DNA of 55,829 nucleotides from a virus (Duplodnaviria > Caudoviricetes): IMG/VR virus record IMGVR_UViG_3300042541_001626, positions 1-55,829 of that record; one strand, written 5' to 3'. The translations under genes were made by a program, and so were the position numbers. Below are positions 1 to 40,068 of this stretch, piece after piece (position 1 is the stretch's first letter; each line of letters opens with the position of its first letter). The notes beneath the pieces are model-generated. The model made no database searches. It was not told the origin of the DNA and saw only the letters and a list, made by a program, of their open reading frames with translations.

Positions 1-374
1 ACTAAATCCTTATGTTCATTGTCACTGAAGTCTCTCTAATAATGAACACCATAGTAACTACCTCATAACTTACTCTATCCGTTACTTATATAATACCACA
101 CAATAAAAATATTACCATAGATTATATCTTATAACATATAATACCATTAAAAATTTACTATCTATATGTCCTTACATATAATGGGGATTTTATTCACCTA
201 CATAGAGACCTTCCTAAATAAATGGGGGATTAGTTTACACTAAACAATCTACTGTAAACACCCACATAAATGGGGGGATATAATTATGAAGGAATGACGT
301 AGTGAATGAAATGAACGGGAGGAAGAGTGAGTAATTATATCCCTTCATTTATTATATAATTAAAATATTATTAC

Positions 375-382
375 TATCTTTG
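375..382 (+). promoter_or_regulatory. Bacteroidetes-type -7 promoter element (TAnnTTTG)
   Basis: TATCTTTG just upstream of the first array-bearing gene. The same motif lies at 3057, 11743, 27023, 28002 and 28684, and on the minus strand ahead of several genes. Confidence 0.6.
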
Positions 383-387
383 TGATT

Positions 388-843
388 ATGGTTAGTGATA
401 AATTAAAATCGATTATTTTTAAGAAGTTATACAGTGAGTTATCTCATTTGGAGATTATTAGGTTTAAGTCTGAGATATGGTTTATTGATAGAGAAGTTAG
501 ATGTTGGTATTTTATTTATAATGATAATGGAACTATGTGGTGGAAAAATTCTTTCTTTCGTAGTTTCTTTGAATTCTTTTCCATTACTGAAATCGATGAG
601 TTCGGATCAATTCTTTCTTCTTGGGTGGGAGAGGTCTTAAATTGTAAGGTAGACAGAGCCAGTTTTTTTCAATTGGCATTACCTTTACAGGTGGAAGAGG
701 TCTTAAATTGTAAGGTAATTACAACAGATCCAAGGAAAGAATTTTTTCTGTTCGCGGTGGAAGAGGTCTTAAAACATAAGTCAGAAAGGTTGGGTCATCC
801 CCCTGTTAGTGAGAATGTTGTTATTAATAATACAGAGAAATGA
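388..843 (+). CDS. Array-bearing protein, family A (MISDRL..WFIDRE..WW N-domain plus 22-aa repeat tail)
   Basis: Paralog of 840, 1314, 3081 and 15394. ATG at 388 aligns with the paralog starts. Tail made of VEEVLNCKV units. Confidence 0.85.
   Translation: MVSDKLKSIIFKKLYSELSHLEIIRFKSEIWFIDREVRCWYFIYNDNGTMWWKNSFFRSFFEFFSITEIDEFGSILSSWVGEVLNCKVDRASFFQLALPLQVEEVLNCKVITTDPRKEFFLFAVEEVLKHKSERLGHPPVSENVVINNTEK
624..791 (+). CRISPR. In-frame CRISPR-like array, 3 repeats / 2 spacers
   Basis: Repeats at 624, 690 and 756 (66-nt period), e.g. GGTGGAAGAGGTCTTAAATTGTAAGGTAATTACAAC. Spacers are 30 nt and unique. Last repeat is degenerate. Confidence 0.65.
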
Positions 844-1310
844 TTAGTGATAGATTGAAAGGTATTATACATAAGAAGTTGTGTGAGGATTTATCTCATT
901 TGGAAATTATTGAGTGGTATGGTGAGATGTGGTTTATTGATAGAGAGGAAAAGTTTTGGTACTTTATATATAATAAGTCTAATGGTGAGATGTGGTGGAG
1001 ATATTCTTTCTTTACCTCTTTCTTTCTTCTTTTCTCTTTACCCTCTGATGAATTTACCAGTATTCTTTCTTCTTGGGTGGAAGAGGTCTTAAATTGTAAG
1101 GTGTTGTCAATGCCTTCGGTTTTTTCATATCGTCATCTGTTGGTAGAAGATGTCCTAAATTGTAAGGTATCGTCAACCACACCAATAACAATCATCAATG
1201 TCGGAATGGTGGAAGATGTCCTAAATTGTAAGGTAACCAAAACTACCCACATGTACAATAATGGTGAAATTTGGGTGGAAGAAGTTTTAAATAATAATAT
1301 AACCGAATAG
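840..1310 (+). CDS. Array-bearing protein, family A
   Basis: Paralogous N-domain, four VEEVLN units, ATGA overlap with the upstream gene. Confidence 0.85.
   Translation: MISDRLKGIIHKKLCEDLSHLEIIEWYGEMWFIDREEKFWYFIYNKSNGEMWWRYSFFTSFFLLFSLPSDEFTSILSSWVEEVLNCKVLSMPSVFSYRHLLVEDVLNCKVSSTTPITIINVGMVEDVLNCKVTKTTHMYNNGEIWVEEVLNNNITE
1076..1309 (+). CRISPR. In-frame CRISPR-like array, 4 repeats / 3 spacers
   Basis: Repeats at 1076, 1142, 1208 and 1274, with 30-nt spacers. Terminal repeat is degenerate. Confidence 0.65.
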
Positions 1311-1313
1311 ATT

Positions 1314-1856
1314 ATGATTAGTGATAGATTGAAAGGTATTATATATAAGAAGTTGTGTGGGGATTTATCTCGTGTGGAGATTATTCATTATAGAACTTAT
1401 GTATGGTTTATTGATAGAGAAGATAAGTGTTGGTATTTAAGGTACGATAACTCTGATGGTCAACTCCTATGGAAGTACAGTTTCTTTTGTGATTTCTTCA
1501 CCATCTTTACAATGGATCGTGACGAATTTACCCCCATCATTTCTTCTTGGGTGGAAGATGTTCTGAATTGTAGGGTAAACACAACGGGAGTTGGAATTGT
1601 TAGTAAAAAAGAGAGGGTGGAAGAGGTCTTAAATTGTAAGGTAGACACAACAGCAACAAGACACCAAAGGTTTTATTGTCTGGTGGAAGAGGTCTTAAAT
1701 TGTAAGGTAAACACAACAGGAAGTTCATTATTAGAATTAGGTGGTAAGGTGGAAGAGGTTCTGAATCATAAAGTAAACTCAACTACCCACATGTACACTA
1801 ATGGTGAAATTCAGTCGGGGGAAGTATTAAACCACAATGTGGTGAATAATGTATAA
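1314..1856 (+). CDS. Array-bearing protein, family A
   Basis: Paralogous N-domain, five repeat units. Confidence 0.85.
   Translation: MISDRLKGIIYKKLCGDLSRVEIIHYRTYVWFIDREDKCWYLRYDNSDGQLLWKYSFFCDFFTIFTMDRDEFTPIISSWVEDVLNCRVNTTGVGIVSKKERVEEVLNCKVDTTATRHQRFYCLVEEVLNCKVNTTGSSLLELGGKVEEVLNHKVNSTTHMYTNGEIQSGEVLNHNVVNNV
1550..1849 (+). CRISPR. In-frame CRISPR-like array, 5 repeats / 4 spacers
   Basis: Repeats at 1550, 1616, 1682, 1748 and 1814 (degenerate), e.g. GGTGGAAGAGGTCTTAAATTGTAAGGTAAACACAAC. Confidence 0.7.
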
Positions 1857-1884
1857 TTAAATTATTTCATTATATTTATACTAT

Positions 1885-2328
1885 ATGAAATGTCTAATTA
1901 CAGAGTCACAAAGGGATGATCTATTGAAGAATCTTATTAAAGAACATGGGTATTACTTTGTTAGTAAGATAGTTGGTACTGATTATTTGTCTGAGGAGGT
2001 CTTTCATAGTAACCCTATGGAATTCTTATCTTTGTATGATGACCTTGATCATTTTGAAAGCTCTGAGAAACCTGGTCTTACTATATATCGTTATGAGAAA
2101 GGCGATAATATTTTTCTTGTGGCGAACTCGACTGGTGATGTATATATTAACTATGACGCCATATATGGAGCCCTTGCTATGTTTAAAGAGTCTCAGATAT
2201 ACTCCGTTAGGACTAGACTGCTCTTAAATTGGTTGAGGGACTCATTTGGGATTAAGTCCGATAGAAACCATATGTGGACTATCCACCCTGATCAGGATTA
2301 CTTTTCAGATTATCTACACTTAACTTAA
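1885..2328 (+). CDS. Hypothetical protein, family B (array-less paralog of 12492)
   Basis: Shares NPMEFL, YRYEKGxN and VYIxY with 12492..13004. MKCLITESQ leader and upstream TATTTAT. Confidence 0.8.
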   Translation: MKCLITESQRDDLLKNLIKEHGYYFVSKIVGTDYLSEEVFHSNPMEFLSLYDDLDHFESSEKPGLTIYRYEKGDNIFLVANSTGDVYINYDAIYGALAMFKESQIYSVRTRLLLNWLRDSFGIKSDRNHMWTIHPDQDYFSDYLHLT

Positions 2329-2335
2329 CCTTATT

Positions 2336-2647
2336 ATGTCACACGAATTAGAAAATGAAAATCTTGAGAAAGAACTTAATAGATTCCTTGATAAGATTGT
2401 TCCCGTTAAATACCCCGAGGTTAACCATATAATTGTTCAGGGTGAACTTTGGAGAACTTCTGGTAATTTCTACTATACCATTAATATTAATCCCACCTTT
2501 GCTGGATCTAAGAGATTACAAGATGATCCTAAGTTTGAAAATGAACTATTCGGGTATATCTTTAAAACCTCTGATTTTGCCCTTAAAATGTTTAAGCAAG
2601 GAAACACTGGTCATTATACCACTGAGGTTAGATGGTTTTGGGATTAA
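2336..2647 (+). CDS. Hypothetical protein
   Basis: Operonic ORF, 103 aa. Confidence 0.7.
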   Translation: MSHELENENLEKELNRFLDKIVPVKYPEVNHIIVQGELWRTSGNFYYTININPTFAGSKRLQDDPKFENELFGYIFKTSDFALKMFKQGNTGHYTTEVRWFWD

Positions 2648-2735
2648 TCTATAATGGAAAATATTTGCCGTTTTTATCTCTATAGTGGAAAATAATCTCC
2701 ATATATAATCTTTTCCCCCATTATAATGGAAAACG

Positions 2736-3002
2736 TTAATTAATCCTTGCTGATTTAAGAATCACCTCTAACATCTGAATCTTGTCCCTGTCGTCCTTGG
2801 TCTTCTTTGATTTACCCTTAAGATAATTGATTGCGTCCATAATCTCATCCCGCTTGTTATTTGTCGGCTTTGGTTTGACAACCTCCTTATCCTTTACTAC
2901 CTTTACATCATTGTTACCAAACAATATGTCCAAAGCTCTCCTGATACGATCTTTGTCGTCTACAAATAACCATAAGAAAATGTGTACTACTAATTTATCC
3001 AT
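2736..3002 (-). CDS. Hypothetical protein
   Basis: ORF with probable start MDKLVVH. Confidence 0.6.
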   Translation of the reverse strand: MDKLVVHIFLWLFVDDKDRIRRALDILFGNNDVKVVKDKEVVKPKPTNNKRDEIMDAINYLKGKSKKTKDDRDKIQMLEVILKSARIN

Positions 3003-3080
3003 ATTGTAAAGATACAAAATATTCCCTAATAATTTACCTATATTAAAAAAAAATCCTATCTTTGTTATAACGAATAAATT

Positions 3081-3875
3081 ATGATTAGCAATAGACTCAA
3101 AAACCTCATCTTTAAAAAGTTATATAAACACTTAAGCGGCGTAGAAATAATCCACTATGATGACTGTATATGGTTTATCGATAGAGAAACTAAGTTTTGG
3201 TATTTTAACTATCATACACTAGAAAATAAATTATGGTGGAGAGGCGCCTTCTTCTTCGATTTTTTTTTCCTTTTCTCGATGGATCATTCTGAGTTTGTTC
3301 CCATTATTTCTGAGTGGGTGGAAGAGACCTTAAATTGTAAGGTAAGCACAACTCGAAGACGAAGAACTGAGAGAGTTAATGAGGTGGAAGAGGTCTTAAA
3401 TTGTAAGGTAAGCACAACCCAAGATGGTGCACATGCTGAGGATGATTTGGTGGAAGAGACCTTAAATTGTAAGGTAATCACAACACGCAACGGAAACTAC
3501 GATGCCACACTTTTGGTGGAAGAGACCTTAAATTGTAAGGTAATTACAACAATAAATGAGCAATTCAAATACATAAACAAGGTGGACGAGGTCTTAAATT
3601 GTAAGGTAGACACATCTAAAAAAGAAAGTGCTAATTATGAATTAAAGGTGGAAGAGGTCTTTTATCGTGGTGCATTATGTGGAAAGGTGGAAGAGGCCTT
3701 AAATTGTAAGGTAGACACAACAAAAAATTTATCAATCCCATTATACCCAATGGTGGAAGATGTGTTAAATTGTAAGGTAAACACAGCTAGTTCCAATCAA
3801 GGGTTTTTACCACCAAAGGTGGATGAGGTTTTAAATTGTAAGGTAGACACATCTGCGATGGAAAGACCACTTTAG
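3081..3875 (+). CDS. Array-bearing protein, family A (longest tail)
   Basis: Paralogous N-domain plus 9 repeat units. TATCTTTG promoter at 3057. Confidence 0.85.
   Translation: MISNRLKNLIFKKLYKHLSGVEIIHYDDCIWFIDRETKFWYFNYHTLENKLWWRGAFFFDFFFLFSMDHSEFVPIISEWVEETLNCKVSTTRRRRTERVNEVEEVLNCKVSTTQDGAHAEDDLVEETLNCKVITTRNGNYDATLLVEETLNCKVITTINEQFKYINKVDEVLNCKVDTSKKESANYELKVEEVFYRGALCGKVEEALNCKVDTTKNLSIPLYPMVEDVLNCKVNTASSNQGFLPPKVDEVLNCKVDTSAMERPL
3317..3853 (+). CRISPR. In-frame CRISPR-like array, 9 repeats / 8 spacers
   Basis: Repeats at 3317, 3383, 3449, 3515, 3581, 3647 (truncated), 3686, 3752 and 3818. Consensus GGTGGAAGAG(GT/AC)CTTAAATTGTAAGGTANNCACAAC with unique 30-nt spacers. Confidence 0.75.
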
Positions 3876-3925
3876 TTTTTTTAACAATTGGGTAAATTAA
3901 CTATAAAACGCCATATTTATCTAAC

Positions 3926-4261
3926 ATGAAATACATTATAACAGAATCTAAACTTAATGCTGCGATTGATGAGTTCATCACAAAACAATTTGGTAAGTTG
4001 CATCATCAGTTAGACGGTAATAAACTTACATTGGTTAATGATAATGGTGACCCCATGATTATGATTACTGATAAAGATAATACTTATTTTGTTTGGGTGT
4101 TAGATGATGTTTGGAGAAGTGGATTTTTGATGTTCTCCATGAAACGTTTTGTGAATATGCAGCCCGTGTTACATAAATGGTTACATAAACATTATAACAT
4201 ACCTGTGGAAGAATCAAACATCTCCACATTTTCACGAGGTGAAGAAGAATACGTATACTAA
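3926..4261 (+). CDS. Hypothetical protein with MKYIITE leader
   Basis: TATTTAT upstream, leader motif. Confidence 0.8.
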   Translation: MKYIITESKLNAAIDEFITKQFGKLHHQLDGNKLTLVNDNGDPMIMITDKDNTYFVWVLDDVWRSGFLMFSMKRFVNMQPVLHKWLHKHYNIPVEESNISTFSRGEEEYVY

Positions 4262-4262
4262 T

Positions 4263-4712
4263 ATGAAATACATTATAACAGAAAATAAAATGTGTAGTAT
4301 TATGGAGAAGATGCTTAACGATGAGTTTGAAGGGTTCTCCGATATCTATTACTCTTGGGCTAACTTTAATTGTGGCATGGGAGAATGTTGTGATATGTAT
4401 GCCGTCGGTTTTGTTTTACCTAAAGCTCATTATGATAACTATCTATTTAAACTTGTTGATGGTGAACACTATGATGATGATGGTGATTACCCTGATGAAC
4501 TTTCTGATGATTTACCCGAACCTTGTTATGAACACCCTGATATCATGGAACCCAGGTTTGACACTATCCTTATCGGTGAGGAAATGTATGAAAAGATGGA
4601 AAACTATTTTAATTTCTTTAACGATTGGGAAAATGAATTACTACGTACTTTGAATCGTCTCTTCCATATGGACGCCAAAGAAATTATGACATTACCTTTG
4701 TCACCATTTTAA
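4263..4712 (+). CDS. Acidic hypothetical protein with MKYIITE leader
   Basis: Start reassigned to ATG 4263 (leader motif). Confidence 0.75.
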   Translation: MKYIITENKMCSIMEKMLNDEFEGFSDIYYSWANFNCGMGECCDMYAVGFVLPKAHYDNYLFKLVDGEHYDDDGDYPDELSDDLPEPCYEHPDIMEPRFDTILIGEEMYEKMENYFNFFNDWENELLRTLNRLFHMDAKEIMTLPLSPF

Positions 4713-5166
4713 ACCATTCAGGTGTTTCCCTATTCTTCCATACAGCAATCTTTGATTTCTCCCCCATGTAATAACTTCTATATGATTCAACCACGCAATT
4801 GGATTTATACTCATCGGGCATCGCCCTTGCTGGTTCGGTGAACTCTTTGTCCGCAATGTTTGGTTTGTTTATTAAACACCACTCTATTACATCCTGAGAC
4901 TTATGTCTTTTACCATAACGATATGTATACTCTTTACATAACTCCAAACCCAATTCACATAGGTATAAATAATTGGATAGTGACTCTCTTGCCCATATTG
5001 AACATGGATGATTCCTATGTGATAACTTGTATGGGGCTTCACCGCCTTGTACCCAATGAACACCACATAAAATTTGGGATGTCTCCAACACCATTTTTAC
5101 AACATGTTTGTCGCAGTGGTATTGTGCACACTTTTTTGTATCCGTATCTAATAAAAAAATATTCAT
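4684..5166 (-). CDS. Pyrimidine-dimer DNA glycosylase (DenV/endonuclease V-like) family protein
   Basis: MNIF-x-LD, CDKHVVKM-x-LE and HRNHPCSIWARES motifs typical of this phage family. Confidence 0.7.
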   Translation of the reverse strand: MNIFLLDTDTKKCAQYHCDKHVVKMVLETSQILCGVHWVQGGEAPYKLSHRNHPCSIWARESLSNYLYLCELGLELCKEYTYRYGKRHKSQDVIEWCLINKPNIADKEFTEPARAMPDEYKSNCVVESYRSYYMGEKSKIAVWKNRETPEWFKMVTKVMS

Positions 5167-5207
5167 ACCACAAATATATAAATTAATTATGGTACCACCA
5201 AGAAGTA

Positions 5208-6029
5208 TTATTTTTTAATTAAAGATAATCTTTCAGTTTCTATATCACAATATTCTTTAGATAATTCAGAACCTATGTAGTTTCTTTTTGTTAGTATACA
5301 CATTTTAGATGTAGTACCACTTCCCATAAATGGATCGTATACTACATCATCTTCATTCGACCAACTCACTATATGTCTTCTTACTAACTCTTCAGGGAAT
5401 ATTGCCGGATGTTTAAACGCCACTTTATCATTTGTTGTATTCCCACCTCCTACATAGAAATCCCATATATTATAATCAGGTACCATTTCTTTTACATAGT
5501 ATTCATTCTCGTTAAATTCACCATCTTGGTTTCTTGAAAACTTCTTTTTCCTATACGTTCTTTTGTCATTACATTTATTACTTCTTTCTCTTAAATCAAT
5601 GTTAGTGGTTTTTGGTTTACCCTTTGAAAAAACAAACATATACTCAAACATTTGTTGGTATCTTGTACCAGCATTTGGCATTGGGTTTAATTTACGGTAT
5701 ATCATAGTATCGTGAACCTTAAACCCTATATCCTTAAAGTACAACGCTTGTCTGAATGAGTTTAATGTTTCCGACCCATTAACCATACTATCATTCACAA
5801 CCCATACGACCACTCCGCCCTTTTTAGTCACTCGATATAACTCTCTCGCAATCTCCTCAAAAGGAAATGAATATCCATTAAGTTCATCACTTATCTTACC
5901 AACCCCATTATTATAATTTCTGATCTCATCATACGGTGGTGAAGTTACAGTTAAATCAATGGAGTTATCGTCCATAGATTTCATTGTTACTAAACAGCTC
6001 TCATTGTATGTTTTATTAATTTCTATCAT
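5208..6029 (-). CDS. N4-cytosine/N6-adenine DNA methyltransferase (beta class)
   Basis: TSPPY catalytic motif before the DPFMGSGTT SAM-binding motif; HPAIFP. Confidence 0.92.
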   Translation of the reverse strand: MIEINKTYNESCLVTMKSMDDNSIDLTVTSPPYDEIRNYNNGVGKISDELNGYSFPFEEIARELYRVTKKGGVVVWVVNDSMVNGSETLNSFRQALYFKDIGFKVHDTMIYRKLNPMPNAGTRYQQMFEYMFVFSKGKPKTTNIDLRERSNKCNDKRTYRKKKFSRNQDGEFNENEYYVKEMVPDYNIWDFYVGGGNTTNDKVAFKHPAIFPEELVRRHIVSWSNEDDVVYDPFMGSGTTSKMCILTKRNYIGSELSKEYCDIETERLSLIKK

Positions 6030-6714
6030 TTAATATCATATTAACACATTTATCATAAATAATATCAAAATTTTCACATTTGTCAACCGCGTCGTACTCA
6101 TGGTTACGTTTTCTTAACTCCTTGATAACCCAATAATCTATCTCACAAATACCAATATTGGTTATCCCCATATAACTCAAATATTCATCATTTGACATGA
6201 CTTTTATTGTGTTACCATTTTTTTCTATTTTGTTTTCCCCACATGCTAAAACCATACCAATAATAACTTCAACCTTATAAGGTAAATTTGTTTTAATCGG
6301 GTTTAGATTATCAGGTAATAGATTAAAATAACTACATACCTTTTCTTCATGTATGAAATTAGCAATACAACTCAAAGTATTAGACAATGAAGAAGAATTA
6401 AAGGATGCATTATTACCTTTTTGTTGGGATATCCTTATATCTATAATCCCATCTATTATTTTTACAGACATTAAATCAACCTTATTATTGTCTTGTGGTA
6501 ATTTCACAATTAACCTATCCTCTTGGAACTCTATCATCGCATTTTCTCTAAGATTGGCAATGATAGTATCTTTAGATGTTTTAGAGTATACTGAATTATA
6601 CGTACTAATAACAGTCATTTTAAATCCGTCCGAATTAATATCCACACCCCCATCAATAAGCCTCTGAATTATTTCAATGATTTGAGCTGGTGACGCCCCC
6701 TTCTTAATAGCCAT
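6016..6714 (-). CDS. Hypothetical protein coupled to the methyltransferase (possible cognate endonuclease)
   Basis: Overlaps the MTase start. No firm motif. Confidence 0.55.
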   Translation of the reverse strand: MAIKKGASPAQIIEIIQRLIDGGVDINSDGFKMTVISTYNSVYSKTSKDTIIANLRENAMIEFQEDRLIVKLPQDNNKVDLMSVKIIDGIIDIRISQQKGNNASFNSSSLSNTLSCIANFIHEEKVCSYFNLLPDNLNPIKTNLPYKVEVIIGMVLACGENKIEKNGNTIKVMSNDEYLSYMGITNIGICEIDYWVIKELRKRNHEYDAVDKCENFDIIYDKCVNMILNDRN

Positions 6715-6768
6715 AATAATACCTTTATTATAAAGATACGAAAAGTACTTTGAATTAACAATGGGGAT

Positions 6769-7278
6769 TTATAAATTATTCTCTATCTTATCCTTTTGGT
6801 AGTGCGTGTGTAGTATATGTATTAACATATGTAAGTGATATGTACATAGTATTATTATATTATAGATTTCGAAATATAACAAACCGAATAGTAATCCTAC
6901 TATGGGTGATGCCATGTATAAATACCCATAGAATTTAAGTCGTTTACTCTTGAATAAAGGGTATAGACAGGACACAAAAAATAAAACCGCTAATACGTTA
7001 TGTGTGTTGGGATATAATTTGGTGGAGAATGCGGTTACTAATACTAATAAAAAGGATGATATTTTCCAATTCTCTATTGATAAAAAGATATATGCTGTCA
7101 TTATGTTGGCAACTATAAATAATGGTTGTAGTGGGGTATTCCAATATTGCGATAATGATTTTAATTCCCCCTCGACGGATAATAATATAAATGGGTACAT
7201 CGCCGAGATAAGTATTACAATTATTTTAATACAGTGATCCAAATACTTCTTATAAAAACTTACAACCCTCCGATTCAT
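6769..7278 (-). CDS. Multi-pass membrane protein
   Basis: About five hydrophobic segments. Confidence 0.7.
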   Translation of the reverse strand: MNRRVVSFYKKYLDHCIKIIVILISAMYPFILLSVEGELKSLSQYWNTPLQPLFIVANIMTAYIFLSIENWKISSFLLVLVTAFSTKLYPNTHNVLAVLFFVSCLYPLFKSKRLKFYGYLYMASPIVGLLFGLLYFEIYNIIILCTYHLHMLIHILHTHYQKDKIENNL

Positions 7279-7316
7279 TGTCTTATGTTTTTGTTATTTA
7301 TTGTTTCACCACCTGT

Positions 7317-8099
7317 TTAATCTCTAACTCTATCATCACCATATAGTTGATGATATCTTTCTGTCATCTCATCCGAGTACATCTCTAACAAAAACTCTTC
7401 AATTTCTTCATATGGAAAATGGTCTGTCCCCCAATTTGATAACTCACCATGAAGTCCGTCTATCATAAGACTAATAACTCTGTCTTTGAATAACTTTAGT
7501 CCGTAATTACCCTTTAACTTGTAAGACGCATAGTCTAAAGAATCCTTAAACTCATCATTTATTTTATCGGGAGTAACTCTTCTTAAGAGATAGACCTTAG
7601 ACTCAGCAACTAAACCCGTCATCGATTGAATTCTATACATATCTTCCTGTATATTAATATCATTATGATTGGCAATCTCTAAAGAGACTCTAAAAATATC
7701 ATCTAAAATCTTATCATTTAACTTAAAATAATTAACTTTATCTTCTCTAATTAAACTTTGATTTTTATATCCTCCCCATACATCAACATAAACACCAAAT
7801 TCTCCAATATAAGCAATTTCAGAGTATTCAGTTTTGGTTTCATTATAAGGAATTTGTCCATCACCTATTTCATCTAAACTAATCCCACCACCTAATTCCT
7901 CACAAACATTAACAATATATTGAATCTTTTCTCTTTTTGTTATAATATCACCGTATTCAGAAACAACATCATATCCACCAAAAACTTTTAGTGTTGATCC
8001 TAATCCCATTTTGTTAATACTGTCACGGATTAAGTTAACCATCCTGTTGTTAGTCTCTTCCCTTAATACTTTTCTTATGTTTTCCTGTAGGTTCATCAT
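7317..8099 (-). CDS. Hypothetical protein with MNLQENI leader and an internal leader copy
   Basis: N-terminal MNLQENIRKVLREE and internal NIQEDMYRIQSMTGLVAES. Confidence 0.8.
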   Translation of the reverse strand: MMNLQENIRKVLREETNNRMVNLIRDSINKMGLGSTLKVFGGYDVVSEYGDIITKREKIQYIVNVCEELGGGISLDEIGDGQIPYNETKTEYSEIAYIGEFGVYVDVWGGYKNQSLIREDKVNYFKLNDKILDDIFRVSLEIANHNDINIQEDMYRIQSMTGLVAESKVYLLRRVTPDKINDEFKDSLDYASYKLKGNYGLKLFKDRVISLMIDGLHGELSNWGTDHFPYEEIEEFLLEMYSDEMTERYHQLYGDDRVRD

Positions 8100-8518
8100 A
8101 CTACATAAATACCTTTCATTTTATCTCTAACCAATTCATCAAATGTATTTCCTGGTATCACAAATACTTCCCCCTGATTTTCACCAACAGGTTCTATGTT
8201 TGTAACCATTTGTTTTGATAATACAATCAATATGTTTTCATCAAACCTTTTAAATAGTTTTGTTGCAATTTTTTCAGCTTTACCTAAGTTAGATGTGTTA
8301 AGTATTGACTGTATAGCAAATCCCATATGATGTCCTTTACCAGGTTTAACCCAAAAATCAATATCTGTCTTGTTGAACTTGTCTACGTATTTTTTAAAGT
8401 TCTCATCTCCATGATCACAGAAATAAATGTAAATCAAAACCTTCTCACTTGTTTCTAATTCAGATTCATTAATCCCCATCATTGATTGGATCCTTTGTAT
8501 GTTTTCTTGTAGGTTCAT
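8096..8518 (-). CDS. Hypothetical protein with MNLQENIQRI leader
   Basis: Leader motif, upstream TATTTAT on the minus strand. Confidence 0.8.
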   Translation of the reverse strand: MNLQENIQRIQSMMGINESELETSEKVLIYIYFCDHGDENFKKYVDKFNKTDIDFWVKPGKGHHMGFAIQSILNTSNLGKAEKIATKLFKRFDENILIVLSKQMVTNIEPVGENQGEVFVIPGNTFDELVRDKMKGIYVV

Positions 8519-8569
8519 ACTAATAAATATCGTATAATTTAAAATCCCCCATTGTTAGTGGAGGATCAT

Positions 8570-8743
8570 TTAAATCTCATCTTTTTCACTTACGCTCACA
8601 TCATCTTCGTAAGTTTTTCCTTCTTGGTAATCTAAAACTTTCTCCTCTAACCAACGGACATAATGATCACTATACTTTCCGTCGCCCTTGTAGTTTCCAT
8701 ACACTTTAAAGTACTCTTTTTGTAGTTCACATCTCTTACTCAT
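8570..8743 (-). CDS. Small hypothetical protein (not in ORF track)
   Basis: MSKRCELQKEYFKVYGNYKGDG..., 57 aa, overlaps the upstream gene's stop. Confidence 0.6.
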   Translation of the reverse strand: MSKRCELQKEYFKVYGNYKGDGKYSDHYVRWLEEKVLDYQEGKTYEDDVSVSEKDEI

Positions 8744-8927
8744 CTCTATACCCTCTAGTATTAATTTCCTTTGATAGTATATGTGCTGCCTTGGTTAAGT
8801 GCATCAGTATTTGGTGATACATATAATCTTGTGAATCTACTCCATGAGTTTTCATACTGTTCAGCGCCAAATCAACACTACGAATCGCTTCATTGAACTC
8901 TACCTCATGTGGTTTTAAAGCTTTCAT
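8736..8927 (-). CDS. Hypothetical protein
   Basis: ORF in minus-strand small-gene run. Confidence 0.65.
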   Translation of the reverse strand: MKALKPHEVEFNEAIRSVDLALNSMKTHGVDSQDYMYHQILMHLTKAAHILSKEINTRGYRDE

Positions 8928-9036
8928 ATCATTTACAGATTAAAAAATGTAATATACCTTGGGTTACCATAAACCCAATTAAAAATGCTACTATTGCTAT
9001 AATTATTTTTTTCATAATGTTTTTACTTGCGGGTTG

Positions 9037-12491: not shown

Positions 12492-13004
12492 ATGAAGATT
12501 ATTATATCAGAGAATCAAAAGAAAAATTTACTTAAATCTATTGTTAAAAAACATGGGTGGGAATACGCTTCCAAACTTGCCGGTAAACCAGAAGAGTTGG
12601 CAAAATTGACATTCGACAATGATCCGATGGAGTTCCTACATATGTTTAACGATATGGATTTTGTTCAGTCAAAAAGTGAAAAAGACTGGACATTGTATCG
12701 TTATGAAAAGGGACATAATCTGATGATTTACGATAGAAAAAATAAATATGTTTACATAGATTATTCTGACATTTGGTTATTTTTGGAAGATGGTTTCGGA
12801 CTTAACTACTCTGAGACACAGGAACTTACAACAAGATGGGTGGATGAAGCATACAATTTAAGGGGGGTTACAACGAGATTTGGTTTAGTTCAACAGAAAA
12901 TGGTGGTGGATGAAGCATACAATTTAAGGGGAGTCACTATTACCCCACAAGTACCCCACAAGTACCCCACAAGTACCCCAAAGTGGATGAATCATACAAA
13001 TTAA
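12492..13004 (+). CDS. Array-bearing protein, family B
   Basis: Paralog of 1885. MKIIISENQ leader. Tail of VDEAYNLRGVT units. Confidence 0.8.
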   Translation: MKIIISENQKKNLLKSIVKKHGWEYASKLAGKPEELAKLTFDNDPMEFLHMFNDMDFVQSKSEKDWTLYRYEKGHNLMIYDRKNKYVYIDYSDIWLFLEDGFGLNYSETQELTTRWVDEAYNLRGVTTRFGLVQQKMVVDEAYNLRGVTITPQVPHKYPTSTPKWMNHTN

Positions 13005-15272: not shown

Positions 15273-15309
15273 GATGTCACTAAGATGTCACTAAGATGTC
15301 ACTAAGATG
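15273..15309 (+). repeat. 11-nt tandem repeat GATGTCACTAA x3.4
   Basis: Read directly; intergenic. Confidence 0.9.
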
Positions 15310-15393: not shown

Positions 15394-15744
15394 ATGATTA
15401 GTGATCGATTGATAGATATTATACATAAGAAGTTATACACAGACTTAAATAATGTTGAGATAATCCATCACTATAATAGTATATGGTTTATCGATAGAAA
15501 AGAAAAGTTTTGGTATTTCAAATATGAAACCAATACTCATAAACTATATTGGAAAGGATCTTACTTCGCAAACTTTTTTACATTTTTCTCCATGGGTGAA
15601 CGTGAGTTTACTGGTATTCTTTCCGATTGGTCGGAAAAGATTTTCAACTGTAAAGTGAAAATAACCCAAAGACTTGAAATTAATATGGATCAACATTTGG
15701 AAGAGGTTCTTAATTATAAGAAAAGCGATGATCTCATTTCATAA
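15394..15744 (+). CDS. Family A paralog with a degenerate two-repeat tail
   Basis: MISDRL..WFIDRKEKFWY. Degenerate repeats at 15630 and 15696, 66 nt apart. Confidence 0.8.
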   Translation: MISDRLIDIIHKKLYTDLNNVEIIHHYNSIWFIDRKEKFWYFKYETNTHKLYWKGSYFANFFTFFSMGEREFTGILSDWSEKIFNCKVKITQRLEINMDQHLEEVLNYKKSDDLIS

Positions 15745-37781: not shown

Positions 37782-38207
37782 TCAAATATCACGCTTCATT
37801 TCACGACTAATATCTCTCTCTTTAATATTTTCTCTTTTATCCCAAAGTTTTTTACCTTTTGCTAACACAATATCCATTTTCAATAGACCCCTCTCATTCT
37901 CATAAAGAATATGAGGAATGATAGTATATCCCTTGATCAATTCCGATTCTAATTTTCTTAATTGTTTTTTCTTTAATAACAATTTTCTATCAGCCCCAAT
38001 ATTATCATTCCCAATTCCTTGGATAAGTATTCCTTTCATAAATAATTCCCCATTCCTGAAATAACAGAACGAATCAGTCATAGACACCTTCCCTTCTCTA
38101 ATTCTCTTAACCTCAATACCAGTCAACTTAATTCCAGCTGAGAGTGTTTCCTCAATGAAATATTCAAACTTAACCTTCCTATTCTCTATACGAACCCTAT
38201 TCTTCAT
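37782..38207 (-). CDS. smpB: SsrA-binding protein SmpB
   Basis: NRK..FEY.I.ETLSAGIKLTGIEVK.IR.G, RKLLL, AKGKKLWDKRE.IK.RD. Confidence 0.9.
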   Translation of the reverse strand: MKNRVRIENRKVKFEYFIEETLSAGIKLTGIEVKRIREGKVSMTDSFCYFRNGELFMKGILIQGIGNDNIGADRKLLLKKKQLRKLESELIKGYTIIPHILYENERGLLKMDIVLAKGKKLWDKRENIKERDISREMKRDI

Positions 38208-38285
38208 AAGCATAAAGATACAACAAAAAATAAAAAACCCTAACAAATTATTTCAGTTTTCTATCTCCGATCATATTTATATTAT

Positions 38286-38627
38286 ATGATAATTAAAATC
38301 AACAATAACAAATTTAAAGTAAAACCAATGATCACCAAAAAAGATACCCAAAAAGGTATGATGGGTCGTGATTTTGATACCACATTTAATGGTATGTTAT
38401 TTTTAATGGATAAGGGTCATCATAGTTTTTGGATGAAGGGATGCATAATCCCTTTAGACATAATCTTCATTAATGGAAATACAATAACCAAAATTAGCCA
38501 CAACTGTCAACCATGTAAAACCGACGAATGTCCAAATTATATGGGAAGTGGTGACACTATCTTAGAACTTAAAGGCGGTACCTGTAAAAAATTAGGAATT
38601 GAATCTGGAGATATTATCCGTTATTAA
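38286..38627 (+). CDS. DUF192 family protein
   Basis: GMMGR, GMLF, FWMK...PLDIIFI and LELKGG motifs. Confidence 0.85.
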   Translation: MIIKINNNKFKVKPMITKKDTQKGMMGRDFDTTFNGMLFLMDKGHHSFWMKGCIIPLDIIFINGNTITKISHNCQPCKTDECPNYMGSGDTILELKGGTCKKLGIESGDIIRY

Positions 38628-40068
38628 ATAAGAATTTTTCATTACCACAATTAAATATTCTATAATACCCTAACTGACCCATAATTTCCACTTCAGTCAA
38701 ACTTTTATCATAACCCTTTTTAACTAATTTATGTTTTTGATAATTAATCCTATTTTCTCGTTTTCCCTTAATAACATAATGATAGTTTGGTTTAGTTATC
38801 CCAATTGAATGAAATCCTAAATTTATATATAACCCACCATTCGCCCAAGAAAGATCACAATACGACAACACAGTAACTGGATTATATTCTTTAATAAATT
38901 GTTTAAATAATTTAGATGCCCCACCAATAACCGAAATACCCGTTTTATTACAAAATCTAACTAATTCATATTCACTTTCTTTATTAGTTTTATTTAAAAT
39001 TTTCCTTGTTTTCATAAAGGTCATCAATGAAACTAATTCACCATTATAATATAAACCATAATTAATATTTGTATTAACAAATCCTTGTAAATGATTTTTA
39101 GTTAAAAATTCTCGTATAAGGTCTTTATTAACAATTTGTTTGAGTATCGTTTTTCTAGCATATATTTTATCCGATAAATTTAAAACATTACTAATAATTG
39201 ATTTAACAATACTCAATTTATCGTCAAAATCATCCTCAAAAATATGGATTAGTCTAACCCCATTATCATTACACATTTGAGTTTTTTTAAGATGATAATC
39301 ATTATTTAAAAATAATTCAGAATGCCACCTAACCCCATTAAATTCAAACCCCAGTTTTAATTCAGGTAAATAAACGTCAATTTCTTTTCGACCAATTTTA
39401 TATGATTGAATAATCTCTCCACTATATAATTCACCGATTAATTTCAATAATAAAACTTCCTTTCCCGATATATTTTTGTTGATAGGATTACATTCATAAC
39501 AACACTCAGTTTTACATACTTTCCTATTACTAAAGATTTTTTTAGGTATTTTAACTTCTCCATGTATGTCACAGTTAATAATAAAATTTTCATCATCTTG
39601 ACCAACAACTTCTGAATTATCTTCTAAGAACTGTTTAAATATAGTGTTTTTTCGTTTGTCAATTTCCCCCCCCATAAGATTTTTCCACTTTTCACTACGT
39701 CTAAAATGTTCTGACCCCCATTTCAACAAACTACTTTCTCGACTCTTTTGTTTAAAATTTTCACTTTTAAATTGATTACTCTCACCATATTTTGTTAAAT
39801 TAGTTTTATTTCTTTTTTCTTTGGAACAACTTGAAGAACAGGTATAATACCCCCCTCGATTAATCGATTGATTATATCTCCTATATTGTATTTTAACTTC
39901 TTTACCACACACGTCACATATCGCATCGACAATTAAGTGACTTTGGGGATTAACAAATTCTATTGGTAAATCATTAACTTTATTAAAAGTTACATCAATA
40001 TTATTTTTTCGATAATAATCACAAACATTACCAGTAATTCTAATTTTAAGATTTTTTGTTATAAGCAT
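38614..40068 (-). CDS. Hef-like homing endonuclease (Zn-binding N-terminus, Vsr/DUF559-like nuclease, GNAT-like C-domain)
   Basis: EIDVYLPELKLGFEFNGVRWHS, IHIFEDD, KIYARK, ELVRFC, GGASKL. Confidence 0.75.
   Translation of the reverse strand: MLITKNLKIRITGNVCDYYRKNNIDVTFNKVNDLPIEFVNPQSHLIVDAICDVCGKEVKIQYRRYNQSINRGGYYTCSSSCSKEKRNKTNLTKYGESNQFKSENFKQKSRESSLLKWGSEHFRRSEKWKNLMGGEIDKRKNTIFKQFLEDNSEVVGQDDENFIINCDIHGEVKIPKKIFSNRKVCKTECCYECNPINKNISGKEVLLLKLIGELYSGEIIQSYKIGRKEIDVYLPELKLGFEFNGVRWHSELFLNNDYHLKKTQMCNDNGVRLIHIFEDDFDDKLSIVKSIISNVLNLSDKIYARKTILKQIVNKDLIREFLTKNHLQGFVNTNINYGLYYNGELVSLMTFMKTRKILNKTNKESEYELVRFCNKTGISVIGGASKLFKQFIKEYNPVTVLSYCDLSWANGGLYINLGFHSIGITKPNYHYVIKGKRENRINYQKHKLVKKGYDKSLTEVEIMGQLGYYRIFNCGNEKFLFNNG

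What the first reader, a model, noticed from the sequence alone, without database searches (positions are those of the whole stretch)
3317..3853. Repeat resembles type VI-B (Cas13b) direct repeats: guide hijacking or RNA anti-CRISPR
Seen: 36-nt repeats ending GGTAATCACAAC or GGTAAACACAAC, with an inner hairpin ACCTTA-AATTG-TAAGGT. The GTCTTA variant keeps pairing through G-U wobble. From memory (needs verification), the Bergeyella zoohelcum Cas13b repeat is GTTGGAACTGCTCTCATTTTGGAGGGTAATCACAAC, which matches the 3449 copy at about 26/36 positions without gaps, on the mRNA strand. Established: type VI-B is a Bacteroidetes system, Cas13b processes its own 30+36-nt crRNAs, and VI-B arrays can be filled in trans by type II-C Cas1-Cas2. 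The promoters here also point to a Bacteroidetes host. Inference: the mRNAs could load host Cas13b with decoy guides (RNA anti-CRISPR) or redirect it. The 5' GGTG in place of GTTG weakens the basal stem, which fits a decoy or a coding compromise.
Basis: partly seen in the sequence, partly recalled or inferred. Interest (0 to 1): 0.85.

Follow-up and report, generated by a model that had tools for sequence, protein, structure and literature searches.

The report
Translated CRISPR-like array in phage gene
A family of huge-phage genes carries, in frame behind a small folded domain, 36-base repeats that resemble Cas13b (type VI-B) CRISPR repeats, separated by 30-base hypervariable spacers, so the same DNA appears to serve both as a coding sequence and as a CRISPR-type array.

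Summary
The repeats are real: 8 full copies and 1 truncated copy, with a 66-nt period. They lie in frame inside a 264-aa ORF (3081-3875). This ORF is one of 5 paralogs in a roughly 290-kb freshwater phage and has at least 600 metagenomic homologs.

Two constraints overlap:
- **Coding:** 0 of 138 spacers carry an in-frame stop, and 184 of 184 unit distances are multiples of 3.
- **Nucleotide level:** a 36-nt block is conserved, including its wobble bases and a G before the first codon. The next 30 nt carry no information.

Orthologous arrays differ by whole repeat-spacer units, share identical spacers, and have degenerate last repeats, as CRISPR arrays do.

I fetched real VI-B repeats from metagenomes; 13 of 16 neighbouring large ORFs are Cas13b. 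They match the window copies at 17-29 of 36 positions. The conserved wobble bases equal the VI-B consensus at 9 of 10 sites, and the tenth would create a stop codon.

Several results count against a simple VI-B reading:
- The VI-B hairpin is not kept.
- Related phages hold no cas gene.
- No protospacer was found.
- The same repeat class also sits beside Cas12f/TnpB-like genes in huge phages.

The resemblance is therefore supported. The decoy or guide-hijack function is plausible but untested.

The parts
3057..3064 (+). Promoter-like motif TATCTTTG, ending 16 nt before the start codon
   Evidence: The motif stands 5-35 nt before an ORF start at 7 of its 10 occurrences in the window. That it fits the Bacteroidota -7 element TAnnTTTG is recalled. 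TAnnTTTG as such is not enriched (84 found against 93 expected).
3081..3875 (+). ORF of 264 aa: N-terminal domain followed by the in-frame repeat-spacer array
   Evidence: At least 600 homologs at E<=0.001. No Pfam, PHROG, PDB or Atlas family.
3081..3316 (+). Coding region of the N-terminal domain (about 79 aa, alpha-beta4-alpha2). It occupies the place of a leader.
   Evidence: AlphaFold gives mean pLDDT 89.8 and pTM 0.77 with 45 sequences. No PDB fold match at E<=0.001. BFVD holds family members and 105-118 aa proteins that consist of the domain alone.
3317..3352 (+). Repeat 1 (36 nt). Its first G is the third base of the Trp codon that ends the N-domain.
3383..3418 (+). Repeat 2
   Evidence: Depth peaks here in other lake runs.
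3449..3484 (+).
3515..3550 (+). Repeat 4
   Evidence: It matches real repeats at up to 29 of 36 positions.
3581..3616 (+). Repeat 5
3647..3685 (+). Truncated, degenerate unit of 39 nt, still in frame
   Evidence: family D2, spacings 66 then 39; 7 substitutions.
3686..3721 (+). Repeat 6
3752..3787 (+). Repeat 7
3818..3853 (+). Repeat 8, the last one. The stop codon follows 7 codons later.
3353..3817 (+). Seven 30-nt spacers between the repeats: 3353-3382, 3419-3448, 3485-3514, 3551-3580, 3617-3646, 3722-3751, 3788-3817
   Evidence: No information per position. No in-frame stop. In another lake run one unit is missing (joint 3328 to 3395 skips 66 nt), and in a further run other letters follow the repeat at 3686-3721.
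382..843 (+). Paralog 1 with 3 repeat units
840..1310 (+). Paralog 2 with 4 units. Its start overlaps the stop of paralog 1.
1314..1856 (+). Paralog 3 with 4 units
15394..15744 (+). Paralog 5: the N-domain with one degenerate unit

Best explanation
The 66-nt units form a CRISPR-type array written in frame into the 3' part of a phage gene. Each unit is a 36-nt repeat plus a 30-nt spacer. The repeat belongs to the repeat class of Bacteroidota type VI-B arrays, which end in GGTAnnnACAAC.

The repeat is dual-coded. It encodes the peptide VEEVLNCKVxTT. Its synonymous sites, and the base before its first codon, are held to the bases of the CRISPR repeat wherever the reading frame allows.

The array grows and shrinks by whole units, as a CRISPR array does. 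I infer that a host Cas1-Cas2 acting in trans does this, because the phages carry no cas1.

The array is transcribed as part of the mRNA from the N-domain side, which is also the direction in which VI-B arrays are read from their leader.

My most likely mechanism, which is inferred, is this. The mRNA supplies many repeat-spacer units that the host's Cas13b can bind. This loads the enzyme with useless or phage-chosen guides and so weakens RNA-targeting immunity against a huge phage. Translation through the array keeps the transcript whole and expressed, with no polarity on the downstream units and tandem paralogs. That would explain why stops and frame shifts are purged.

My odds for each layer:
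- About 0.75 that it is a dual-coded array with CRISPR-type unit turnover.
- About 0.6 that the repeat is related to, or mimics, the VI-B/II-C-compatible repeat class.
- About 0.3 that the function is titration or re-arming of Cas13b.
For: **Shown: the sequence codes**
- 0 of 138 distinct internal spacers have a stop in the ORF frame. The other five frames have 40-81 of 138.
- 184 of 184 distinct unit-to-unit distances are multiples of 3, and 170 are exactly 66. In real VI-B arrays 113 of 710 spacers are 29 or 31 nt.
- The N-domain folds with pLDDT 89.8.

**Shown: a nucleotide-level constraint exists**
- In 243 distinct units from the window and 45 viral loci, information is high from the base before the first codon to base 35, then near zero for 30 nt.
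- The preceding base is G in 215 of 243 units.
- In 120 homologs the preceding residue is almost only one that has a G-ending codon: K 75 against N 3, E 45 against D 1, Q 32 against H 0, L 87 against F 3, M 41 against I 1.
- The same amino acid uses different fixed codons at different places. The first Val is GTG in 83% of units and the ninth Val is GTA in 81%.
- Among 26 genes under 80% identical, Lys is AAG in 21 of 21 and Asn is AAT in 24 of 24. Conserved N-domain residues use their modal codon in only 42-86% of cases.

**Shown: the bias points to VI-B**
- Wobble bases equal the VI-B consensus far more often than the window's codon usage predicts: 0.79 against 0.15, 0.64 against 0.27, 0.36 against 0.07, 0.81 against 0.22, 0.79 against 0.19, and 0.90 against 0.40.
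- The one conserved wobble site that differs (repeat position 22) would give TGA.
- At the 23 positions my pattern did not fix, window copies match real repeats at a median of 10-12, against 6 for random window 36-mers (P 0.004-0.0004).
- 13 of 16 large ORFs beside those arrays are Cas13b, with E<=1e-169.

**Shown: the array behaves like a CRISPR array**
- Orthologous genes with near-identical N-domains share spacers that are identical at the nucleotide level, in conserved order. They differ by whole units, and new units appear next to the N-domain.
- Mean mismatches to the consensus rise along the array: first repeat 3.9, middle 4.2, second-last 6.0, last 6.7 (46 arrays).
- Other lake metagenomes hold this same gene with one unit fewer, or with a different spacer.
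- Spacer GC is 42%, against 28-35% for the phage loci.

**From papers (passages read)**
- VI-B repeats are 36 nt with GUUG/CAAC ends (10.1101/092577).
- VI-B arrays are read from the leader end and filled by II-C Cas1. The shared motif lies at the leader-distal repeat end (PMC8092290).
- An over-expressed non-targeting crRNA cut Cas13b phage defence about 1000-fold (PMC13187072).
Against: - Threaded on the structure that real VI-B repeats support, only 46.7% of phage cells pair. That is no better than slid controls, against 86.7% in real repeats with 0 of 500 shuffles reaching that value.
- The phage's own hairpin is shifted by one base, consists largely of G-U pairs, shows no covariation (96 of 500 shuffles reach it), and folds weakly.
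- The 5' end reads GGTG. T at repeat position 2 occurs in 4% of units. There is no poly-U loop.
- For the family-wide consensus, the match at the 20 free central positions is modest: 8.25 against 5.7, P about 0.025.
- My sample of real repeats was drawn with a pattern taken from the window's own 3' motif. Twelve matches are therefore built in, and I do not know what share of all VI-B repeats carries that motif.
- The same repeat class stands beside Cas12f/TnpB-like ORFs in huge phages (7 of 9), so Cas13b need not be the partner.
- No protospacer was found for any spacer.
- A decoy needs neither spacer turnover nor a folded N-domain.
- Ribosomes moving along the RNA should hinder Cas13b binding.
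- The host is not identified.
- Short-read metagenome assemblies of repeat arrays can be chimeric between strains. This could mimic unit loss or reshuffling, though it could not create new spacers.
Confidence: 0.45

Rival explanations
1. The array is a working guide array carried by the phage. Its repeat-spacer units are cut out and used by a Cas effector to hit competing phages or host transcripts. The effector could be host Cas13b, or in some relatives a phage Cas12f/TnpB-like nuclease. Translation is a side condition for expression.
For: Spacers turn over with polarity. Spacer GC is foreign to the phage. 0 of 18 spacers of a relative that is 82% complete match its own genome. Orphan arrays with host-like repeats, thought to use host Cas, are described in huge phages (passages of PMC7162821). 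Two records with the gene family also hold a canonical array beside a Cas12f/TnpB-like ORF: G010, and the contig that holds both L035 and L257.
Against: No target was found in INPHARED, in IMG/VR by four exact words, in 0.5 Mb of relatives, or in 0.49 Mb of Cas13b-bearing contigs. Activating Cas13b causes dormancy, which would also stop the resident phage. Five relatives hold no Cas13b and no Cas12f TNB domain. The repeat hairpin is degraded.
Confidence: 0.2
2. The array acts at the DNA level on adaptation. The many phage-borne leader-like junctions either draw the host's Cas1-Cas2 away from the host array (a spacer sink), or the phage exploits spacer integration to write random 10-aa cassettes into a protein.
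For: Unit gain occurs next to the N-domain. The best-kept end of the repeat is the leader-distal ACAAC motif, which II-C and VI-B repeats share and which was proposed to guide the acquisition complex (passages of PMC8092290). There are 2-12 family genes per genome. The frame and stop-free state are kept strictly. Spacer peptides evolve almost neutrally (7 synonymous against 11 non-synonymous variants).
Against: No integration event has been observed. No cas1 is present in the phages. Spacers are not taken from the phage's own genome (0 of 18), although a sink during infection should mostly collect such spacers. The repeat region has no confident fold (pLDDT 30-55).
Confidence: 0.15
3. It is an ordinary tandem-repeat protein of a phage. 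The likeness to CRISPR repeats is chance in AT-rich DNA. The nucleotide identity of the repeats comes from gene conversion and unequal crossing-over between units.
For: It is a real ORF with a folded N-domain and a strict 22-aa period. CRISPR finders are known to call repeat proteins by mistake (recalled). The family-wide central match is only P about 0.025. No cas gene, no protospacer and no conserved RNA structure were found.
Against: Gene conversion homogenises within a genome. It does not explain why the same codons recur in phages whose N-domains are 40-60% identical. It does not explain the G before the unit. It does not explain why the fixed wobble bases equal the VI-B consensus at 9 of 10 sites against the phage's own codon bias. 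It offers no source for entirely new 30-nt inserts of higher GC. The repeat region has no confident fold.
Confidence: 0.12
4. The repeats are DNA sites for something other than CRISPR. They could be recombination cassettes for contingency-type variation, or iteron-like binding sites lying inside a gene as in the lambda O gene.
For: The repeats are conserved at the nucleotide level inside an ORF. Units are shuffled between strains.
Against: There are several arrays per genome and at least 600 homologs, which does not fit a single origin of replication. The bias toward the VI-B consensus and the 36+30 geometry are left unexplained. No recombinase is linked to the arrays.
Confidence: 0.05

Closest known systems
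Type VI-B (Cas13b) CRISPR arrays of Bacteroidota
   Same: The repeat is 36 nt and the spacer 30 nt. The array is read from the leader side. The 3' motif GGTAnnnACAAC is shared, and 17-29 of 36 positions are identical to real repeats. The last repeats are degenerate and unit turnover is polar (passages of 10.1101/092577 and PMC8092290).
   Different: The array lies in frame in a protein-coding gene, with no stop and no 29- or 31-nt spacer. The 5' end is GGTG rather than GTTG. There is no poly-U loop and the repeat hairpin is not kept. No cas13b or csx27/28 lies nearby, and the array sits in a phage.
Orphan CRISPR arrays of huge phages that are thought to use host Cas proteins (Al-Shayeb et al. 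2020, PMC7162821, passages read)
   Same: The carrier is a huge phage. The arrays are compact (3-10 units). The phage has no adaptation or interference genes. The repeats are of a host-like class.
   Different: The published arrays are non-coding. Here the array is the C-terminal part of an ORF family with 2-12 copies per genome. I found no mention of VI-B-like phage arrays in the passages read.
RNA anti-CRISPRs (Racr, solitary repeat units; Camara-Wilpert et al. 2023, PMC10651486, passages read)
   Same: A phage-borne mimic of a CRISPR repeat without cas genes could titrate the effector.
   Different: Racrs are small non-coding RNAs with at least 90% identity to a known repeat. Their finder masks ORFs and discards arrays, so this kind would be missed. 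That survey found none for type VI. Here identity is at most 81%, the units form arrays, and they are translated.
In-trans spacer acquisition by VI-B arrays through II-C Cas1 in Flavobacterium columnare (Hoikkala et al. 2021, PMC8092290, passages read)
   Same: An array without its own cas1/cas2 still gains spacers at the leader end. The shared repeat motif lies at the leader-distal end, which is the best-kept end of the phage repeat.
   Different: There the array belongs to the host and acquisition was shown by experiment. Here acquisition is inferred from comparing metagenomic variants.
Compact type V-like loci of huge phages (array beside a Cas12f/TnpB-like ORF), seen here in IMG/VR contigs
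   Same: The repeat class (GTTG..GGTAnnnACAAC) and the 65-66 nt period are the same. Two records hold both kinds of array.
   Different: Those arrays have stops in all frames and stand beside a nuclease gene. Five relatives of the window have no such gene.

Membership tests
Type VI-B (Cas13b) CRISPR repeat/array | Repeat of 36 nt | tested here: met
   The conserved block runs from the base before the first codon to base 35, which is 36 nt (243 units).
Type VI-B (Cas13b) CRISPR repeat/array | Spacers of about 30 nt | tested here: met
   170 of 184 unit distances are 66 nt. In real arrays 585 of 710 spacers are 30 nt.
Type VI-B (Cas13b) CRISPR repeat/array | Complementary ends 5'-GUUG and CAAC-3' (10.1101/092577, passage) | tested here: not met
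   The 3' CAAC is kept in 70-90% of units per base. The 5' end is GGTG, with T at position 2 in 4% of 170 distinct repeats. Only 3 of 5 basal pairs can form.
Type VI-B (Cas13b) CRISPR repeat/array | [quoted passage not shown] | tested here: not met
   Positions 17 and 18 are A in 154 and 170 of 170 phage repeats. In real repeats they are T in 30 and 62 of 69.
Type VI-B (Cas13b) CRISPR repeat/array | Repeat hairpin recognised by Cas13b | tested here: not met
   Real repeats pair in 86.7% of cells, with covariation. Phage repeats in the same register pair in 46.7%, no better than slid controls.
Type VI-B (Cas13b) CRISPR repeat/array | Sequence likeness to real VI-B repeats beyond chance | tested here: met
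   Window copies reach a median of 10-12 of 23 unforced positions against 6 for random 36-mers (P 0.004-0.0004). The family consensus gives P about 0.025. Wobble sites match at 9 of 10. The sample of real repeats was biased by the search pattern.
Type VI-B (Cas13b) CRISPR repeat/array | cas13b (with csx27/csx28) beside the array | tested here: not met
   None was found in 5 related records, one of them 100% complete (that search had no positive control). Local tblastn gave 0 hits in 758,581 nt, while 28 of 80 control loci were positive.
Type VI-B (Cas13b) CRISPR repeat/array | Bound and processed by Cas13b | not testable with these tools
   This needs biochemistry.
CRISPR array in general | Near-identical repeats alternating with unique spacers of fixed length | tested here: met
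CRISPR array in general | Polar gain of units, loss of whole units, degenerate terminal repeat | tested here: met
   Polarity is clear in 2 of 4 ortholog groups (4 distinct first spacers against 2 distinct last, and 5 against 1) and not in the other 2.
CRISPR array in general | Spacers match foreign DNA (protospacers) | tested here: inconclusive
   No match was found in any collection searched. The large metagenome and genome collections could not be searched with spacers.
CRISPR array in general | Non-coding | tested here: not met
   The frame is open through every array.
RNA anti-CRISPR (Racr / solitary repeat unit) | Repeat mimic on a virus without cas genes | tested here: met
RNA anti-CRISPR (Racr / solitary repeat unit) | Small non-coding RNA with at least 90% identity to a known repeat (criteria of SRUFinder, passage) | tested here: not met
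   It lies inside an ORF. The best identity is 29 of 36.
RNA anti-CRISPR (Racr / solitary repeat unit) | Inhibits the matching Cas effector | not testable with these tools
   This needs an interference assay.
Structural tandem-repeat (solenoid-type) protein | Repeats conserved as amino acids with free synonymous sites, and a confident repeated fold | tested here: not met
   Synonymous sites are fixed. The repeat region has pLDDT 30-55.

The most novel reading that the evidence does not exclude
CRISPR spacer integration is being used as a writer of protein sequence. A host Cas1-Cas2 inserts 66-nt units into a phage ORF whose repeat has been recoded to stay open. Each acquisition then adds 12 fixed and 10 random residues to a phage protein. 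The same transcript doubles as a supply of Cas13b-type guides or decoys. This would be the first CRISPR array that is also a gene, and a new way to generate protein hypervariability.
Probability: 0.1. Interest if true: 0.95.

Novelty: new variant of a known kind. Interest (0 to 1): 0.8.

Why it matters
RNA-targeting Cas13 is the CRISPR type that can still reach huge phages which shield their DNA (recalled from work on nucleus-forming jumbo phages). The 2023 survey of RNA anti-CRISPRs found repeat mimics for every CRISPR type except type VI. Its method masked ORFs and discarded arrays (passages), so it could not have found this kind.

The family has at least 600 members and would fill that gap in an unexpected form: a repeat-spacer array that is translated. 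If the array is extended by a host integrase, phage genomes record acquisitions, and CRISPR repeats can be recoded to live inside genes.

It also bears on annotation. CRISPR finders would dismiss such arrays as repeat proteins, and gene callers would file them as hypothetical proteins.

The claim is directly testable with one transcript, one Cas13b and one stop-codon mutant.

Tried and rejected
- **Rfam** at E<=10 over 1-6000 gave no CRISPR-DR family and nothing on the repeats.
- **RNAalifold** on 69 real repeats predicted no pairs. I therefore wrote the structure by hand from the paper's description and tested it by counting pairs.
- **The genome-contig scan** with GTTG..CAAC three times over returned 40 arrays, mostly Chloroflexota (Caldilineaceae, Dehalococcoidia), and no Bacteroidota.
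- **Printed Cas13b repeats in papers:** two searches with window motifs found none.
- **The first related-loci run** with the single protein found nothing, because its patterns came from spacers. An alignment then gave 45 loci.
- **Megablast of 1-9000** against cultured phages gave no match.
- **Protospacer searches all came back blank:**
  - 213 phage spacers against the window and 45 loci gave only arrays and stray units.
  - blastn against 50,697 phage records gave E>=0.08.
  - Four exact words in IMG/VR found only the arrays themselves or nothing.
  - 18 spacers against a whole relative gave 0 second hits.
  - Phage spacers against 0.49 Mb of Cas13b-bearing contigs gave chance-level partial hits.
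  - 681 real VI-B spacers against the phage loci gave only partial hits of 20-24 nt.
- **N-domain:** no PDB sequence match, no PDB fold match at E<=0.001, and Atlas scores of 0.80 or less.
- **-1 frameshift site:** I considered the T_TTA_AAT heptamer and rejected it, because the first base is T in only 26 of 243 units.
- **Internal SD-like start or start-stop** in the repeat: not followed up.
- **Sequencing runs:** no RNA holder is listed for the stretch, so expression could not be examined.
- **Complex prediction** was not used. Phage-host pairs rarely pass, and I do not claim protein binding.
- **Supplementary files** of the Cas13b and Racr papers (repeat alignments, lists of solitary repeats) could not be seen and may bear on how general the GGTAnnnACAAC motif is.
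Full report
**What is there.** The stretch 3317-3853 holds 8 full copies and one truncated copy of a unit with a 66-nt period. The units lie in frame inside an ORF of 264 aa (3081-3875, + strand).

The window is an IMG/VR virus record of 55.8 kb, with about 30% GC, estimated to be 19% complete. It encodes SmpB, a response-regulator receiver, thioredoxins and several DNA methyltransferases. It is therefore a piece of a huge phage of bacteria. Other runs that hold the stretch are lake and freshwater metagenomes.

Four further paralogs stand in the window: 382-843, 840-1310, 1314-1856 and 15394-15744. Each has the same plan. An N-terminal domain of about 80 aa is followed by n units of 22 aa, made of the fixed peptide VEEVLNCKVxTT and 10 hypervariable residues.

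The family is large and unnamed:
- 600 proteins at E<=0.001 among 3212 candidates.
- 45 loci on viral contigs of up to 326 kb.
- 2-12 matches per related genome.
- No Pfam, PHROG, PDB or Atlas family.

**It codes.** I detected units without regard to stops.
- 0 of 138 distinct internal spacers have a stop in the ORF frame. The other two frames have 40 and 81 of 138, and the three opposite-strand frames have 45-55.
- At the DNA level and in any frame, 184 of 184 distinct distances between neighbouring units are multiples of 3, and 170 are exactly 66.
- Real VI-B arrays differ: 98 spacers of 29 nt and 15 of 31 nt among 710.
- The N-domain is predicted with mean pLDDT 89.8. The repeat part reaches only 30-55.
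- The few spacer variants that differ by point changes show 7 synonymous and 11 non-synonymous variants. The frame matters, and the peptide sequence seems to matter little.

**A nucleotide-level constraint lies over the coding.** In 243 distinct units from the window and 45 loci, information is high from the base before the first codon through base 35. It then falls to about zero for 30 bases.

- The base before the unit is G in 215 of 243 units.
- In 120 homologous proteins the residue at that place is almost always one with a G-ending codon: K 75 against N 3, E 45 against D 1, Q 32 against H 0, L 87 against F 3, M 41 against I 1 (593 units). This pattern follows the genetic code. It is not a chemical preference among residues.
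- Synonymous sites are fixed, and differently for the same amino acid. The first Val is GTG in 83% of units, the ninth Val is GTA in 81%, the first Thr is ACA in 92%, and the second Thr is free.
- Among 26 genes under 80% identical, Lys is AAG in 21 of 21, Asn is AAT in 24 of 24, and Val is GTG in 23 of 24. Equally conserved residues of the N-domain use their modal codon in 42-86% of cases.
- The consensus is the same in phages whose N-domains are 40-60% identical. Homogenisation within a genome does not explain that.

**The arrays evolve like CRISPR arrays.** Genes with near-identical N-domains in different contigs share spacers that are identical at the nucleotide level and stand in the same order. 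They differ by the presence or absence of whole units. Units unique to one contig stand next to the N-domain, and the units at the far end are shared.

Polarity is clear in 2 of 4 ortholog groups (4 distinct first spacers against 2 distinct last, and 5 against 1). It is not clear in the other 2 (3 against 3, and 3 against 4).

The repeats decay toward the far end. Mean mismatches to the consensus are 3.9 for the first repeat, 4.2 for middle repeats, 6.0 for the second-last and 6.7 for the last, over 46 arrays.

In other lake metagenomes, one contig joins 3328 to 3395 and skips exactly 66 nt. Another continues after the repeat at 3686-3721 with 27 other letters and then a repeat.

Spacer GC is 41.7%, against 28.5-35.4% for the phage loci.

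One caveat applies. These are short-read assemblies, and a mixture of strains can yield chimeric arrays.

**Comparison with real type VI-B repeats.** A scan of metagenome contigs looked for two successive repeats that begin GTTG and end GGTAnnnACAAC, with 29-31 nt between them. Of these, 80 are held, with 69 distinct repeats.

Of 16 large neighbouring ORFs tested, 13 are Cas13b (NF038190, E from 1e-169 to 1e-285). Two are a tape measure protein and one has no family. By local tblastn, 28 of the 80 loci hold Cas13b.

The window copies match these repeats at 17-29 of 36 positions. The 3449 copy matches at 18-28, and at 18-26 for the 13 loci with confirmed Cas13b.

Thirteen positions were fixed by my pattern, and 12 of them match by construction. 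At the other 23 positions the median match is 10-12, against 6 for random window 36-mers. P(median>=11) is 0.004 and P(median>=12) is 0.0004. For the family-wide consensus, the 20 central positions give 8.25 against 5.7, with P about 0.025.

The most telling result concerns the synonymous sites. The fixed wobble bases of the phage repeat equal the VI-B consensus base, against the window's own codon bias:

| Site | Observed | Expected from codon usage |
|---|---|---|
| Val GTG | 0.79 | 0.15 |
| Glu GAG | 0.64 | 0.27 |
| Val GTC | 0.36 | 0.07 |
| Lys AAG | 0.81 | 0.22 |
| Val GTA | 0.79 | 0.19 |
| Thr ACA | 0.90 | 0.40 |
| G before the unit | 0.84 | 0.15 (share of G at third positions) |

The one fixed wobble base that differs, at repeat position 22, would turn the Cys codon into TGA.

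Read in the phage frame, the VI-B consensus has stops at positions 5-7 and 20-22. The phage repeat departs from the consensus at both places. Five of the matching wobble sites lie in the part fixed by my pattern. For positions 1, 4 and 34 the paper's statement of GUUG/CAAC ends gives independent support.

**What does not fit VI-B.**
- Real repeats support a two-helix hairpin. 86.7% of cells pair, 0 of 500 shuffles reach that value, and slid controls give 39-52%.
- The phage repeats in the same register pair in 46.7% of cells, no better than slid controls.
- Their own hairpin is shifted by one base, is rich in G-U pairs, and shows no covariation. Single copies fold at -2 to -7 kcal/mol with z-scores from -1.7 to +1.05.
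- The 5' end is GGTG, and the loop is A-rich rather than poly-U.
- No Cas13b, Cas1 or Cas12f-type TNB domain is found in five related records, one of them 100% complete. The Cas1 and TNB searches rang in control genomes. The Cas13b search had no control, so I added a local tblastn with positive controls.
- No spacer matches anything I could search.

**A twist.** The same repeat pattern occurs in 41 stretches of viral contigs, with a 65-66 nt period and, in most, stops in all frames.

In huge-phage contigs, these arrays stand directly beside ORFs of 414-501 aa with OrfB_IS605 and Cas12f1-like TNB domains (7 of 9 tested). Five of the huge-phage records that hold such arrays (309-365 kb, 96-100% complete) contain no Cas13b (that search had no positive control).

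Two records hold both a canonical array of this kind and the coding family: G010, and the contig that holds both L035 and L257.

The repeat class is therefore not exclusive to VI-B. In F. columnare, VI-B and II-C repeats share the leader-distal motif, and VI-B is filled by II-C Cas1 (passages). That motif corresponds to the ACAAC end, which is the best-kept end of the phage repeat. This fits the view that the class is defined by a shared adaptation machinery. On that view the phage repeat is kept compatible with that machinery, and perhaps also with an effector.

**Mechanism.**
- *Shown:* the unit is dual-coded, the array shows unit-wise turnover, the repeat resembles the VI-B class, and the phages lack cas genes.
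- *Inferred:* a host integrase adds the units, the transcript is bound by host Cas13b, and translation is kept to secure full-length expression of the array and of the tandem genes that follow it.

The published result that an over-expressed non-targeting crRNA lowers Cas13b defence about 1000-fold (passages) makes a titration role plausible. The degraded hairpin, the translation and the spacer turnover make it far from certain.

**Novelty.** Orphan arrays in huge phages and RNA anti-CRISPRs are known (passages). The Racr survey reported no type VI case, and it masked ORFs. My searches for the peptide motif and for translated arrays found nothing relevant in the held library.

I file it as a new variant of a known kind: a phage-borne CRISPR-type array that is also a gene. 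Supplementary files of the cited papers were closed and may list related repeats.

Noticed in passing
L223, L230, L236, L239, L251, L257, L263 (IMG/VR contigs, several of 309-365 kb): Short non-coding arrays of the GTTG..GGTAnnnACAAC repeat class stand directly beside 414-501 aa ORFs with OrfB_IS605 and Cas12f1-like TNB domains (7 of 9 tested). No Cas13b was found in five such genomes. This looks like a compact type V-like locus of huge phages that uses a VI-B-like repeat.
   Followed up: partly
L103, L114, L156, L170 and about 20 IMG/VR stretches (e.g. L224, L227, L235, L241): One repeat of the same class forms arrays of 4-24 units near a 1199-aa tail tape measure gene (TIGR01760), on contigs of 16-50 kb. 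This is an orphan VI-B-like array on a tailed phage or prophage.
   Followed up: partly
L096:2038-5664: A 1209-aa ORF beside a VI-B-like array has no NCBIfam hit at E<=1e-5. It may be a divergent effector or an unrelated gene.
   Followed up: no
window 375, 3057, 24714, 28002 (+); 34676, 37771 (-) and others: The motif TATCTTTG stands 5-35 nt before an ORF start at 7 of its 10 occurrences, with no Shine-Dalgarno-like sequence between. It fits a Bacteroidota-type -7 promoter element (recalled). TAnnTTTG as such is not enriched (84 against 93 expected).
   Followed up: partly
window 3247-3279: The conserved Phe-rich motif FFxxFFxxFS of the N-domain is a T-rich tract 38-70 nt before the first repeat. 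Poly(T) tracts at a similar distance are described in II-C/VI-B leaders (passage of PMC8092290), so it could double as a leader element.
   Followed up: no
window 1885-2328, 3926-4261, 4263-4712: Small paralogous proteins that begin MKYIITE/MKCLITE flank the array genes. BFVD holds 105-118 aa proteins of an uncultured phage with the N-domain fold (TM 0.74-0.81, 16-22% identity). The N-domain therefore belongs to a wider family of small phage proteins that also exist without arrays.
   Followed up: partly
window 37785-38213 (-): A phage-encoded SmpB (PF01668, E 3e-43). No tmRNA or tRNA was found in the window by ARAGORN.
   Followed up: no
window 12941-12984 and 15273-15309: Two tandem repeats of 11 nt (4.1 copies with 97% matches, and 3.4 perfect copies). 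The second lies just upstream of paralog 5.
   Followed up: no
window 38614-40068 (-): A 484-aa ORF with a strong match to PHROG homing/HNH endonuclease families (E 3e-102) lies next to the SmpB gene.
   Followed up: no
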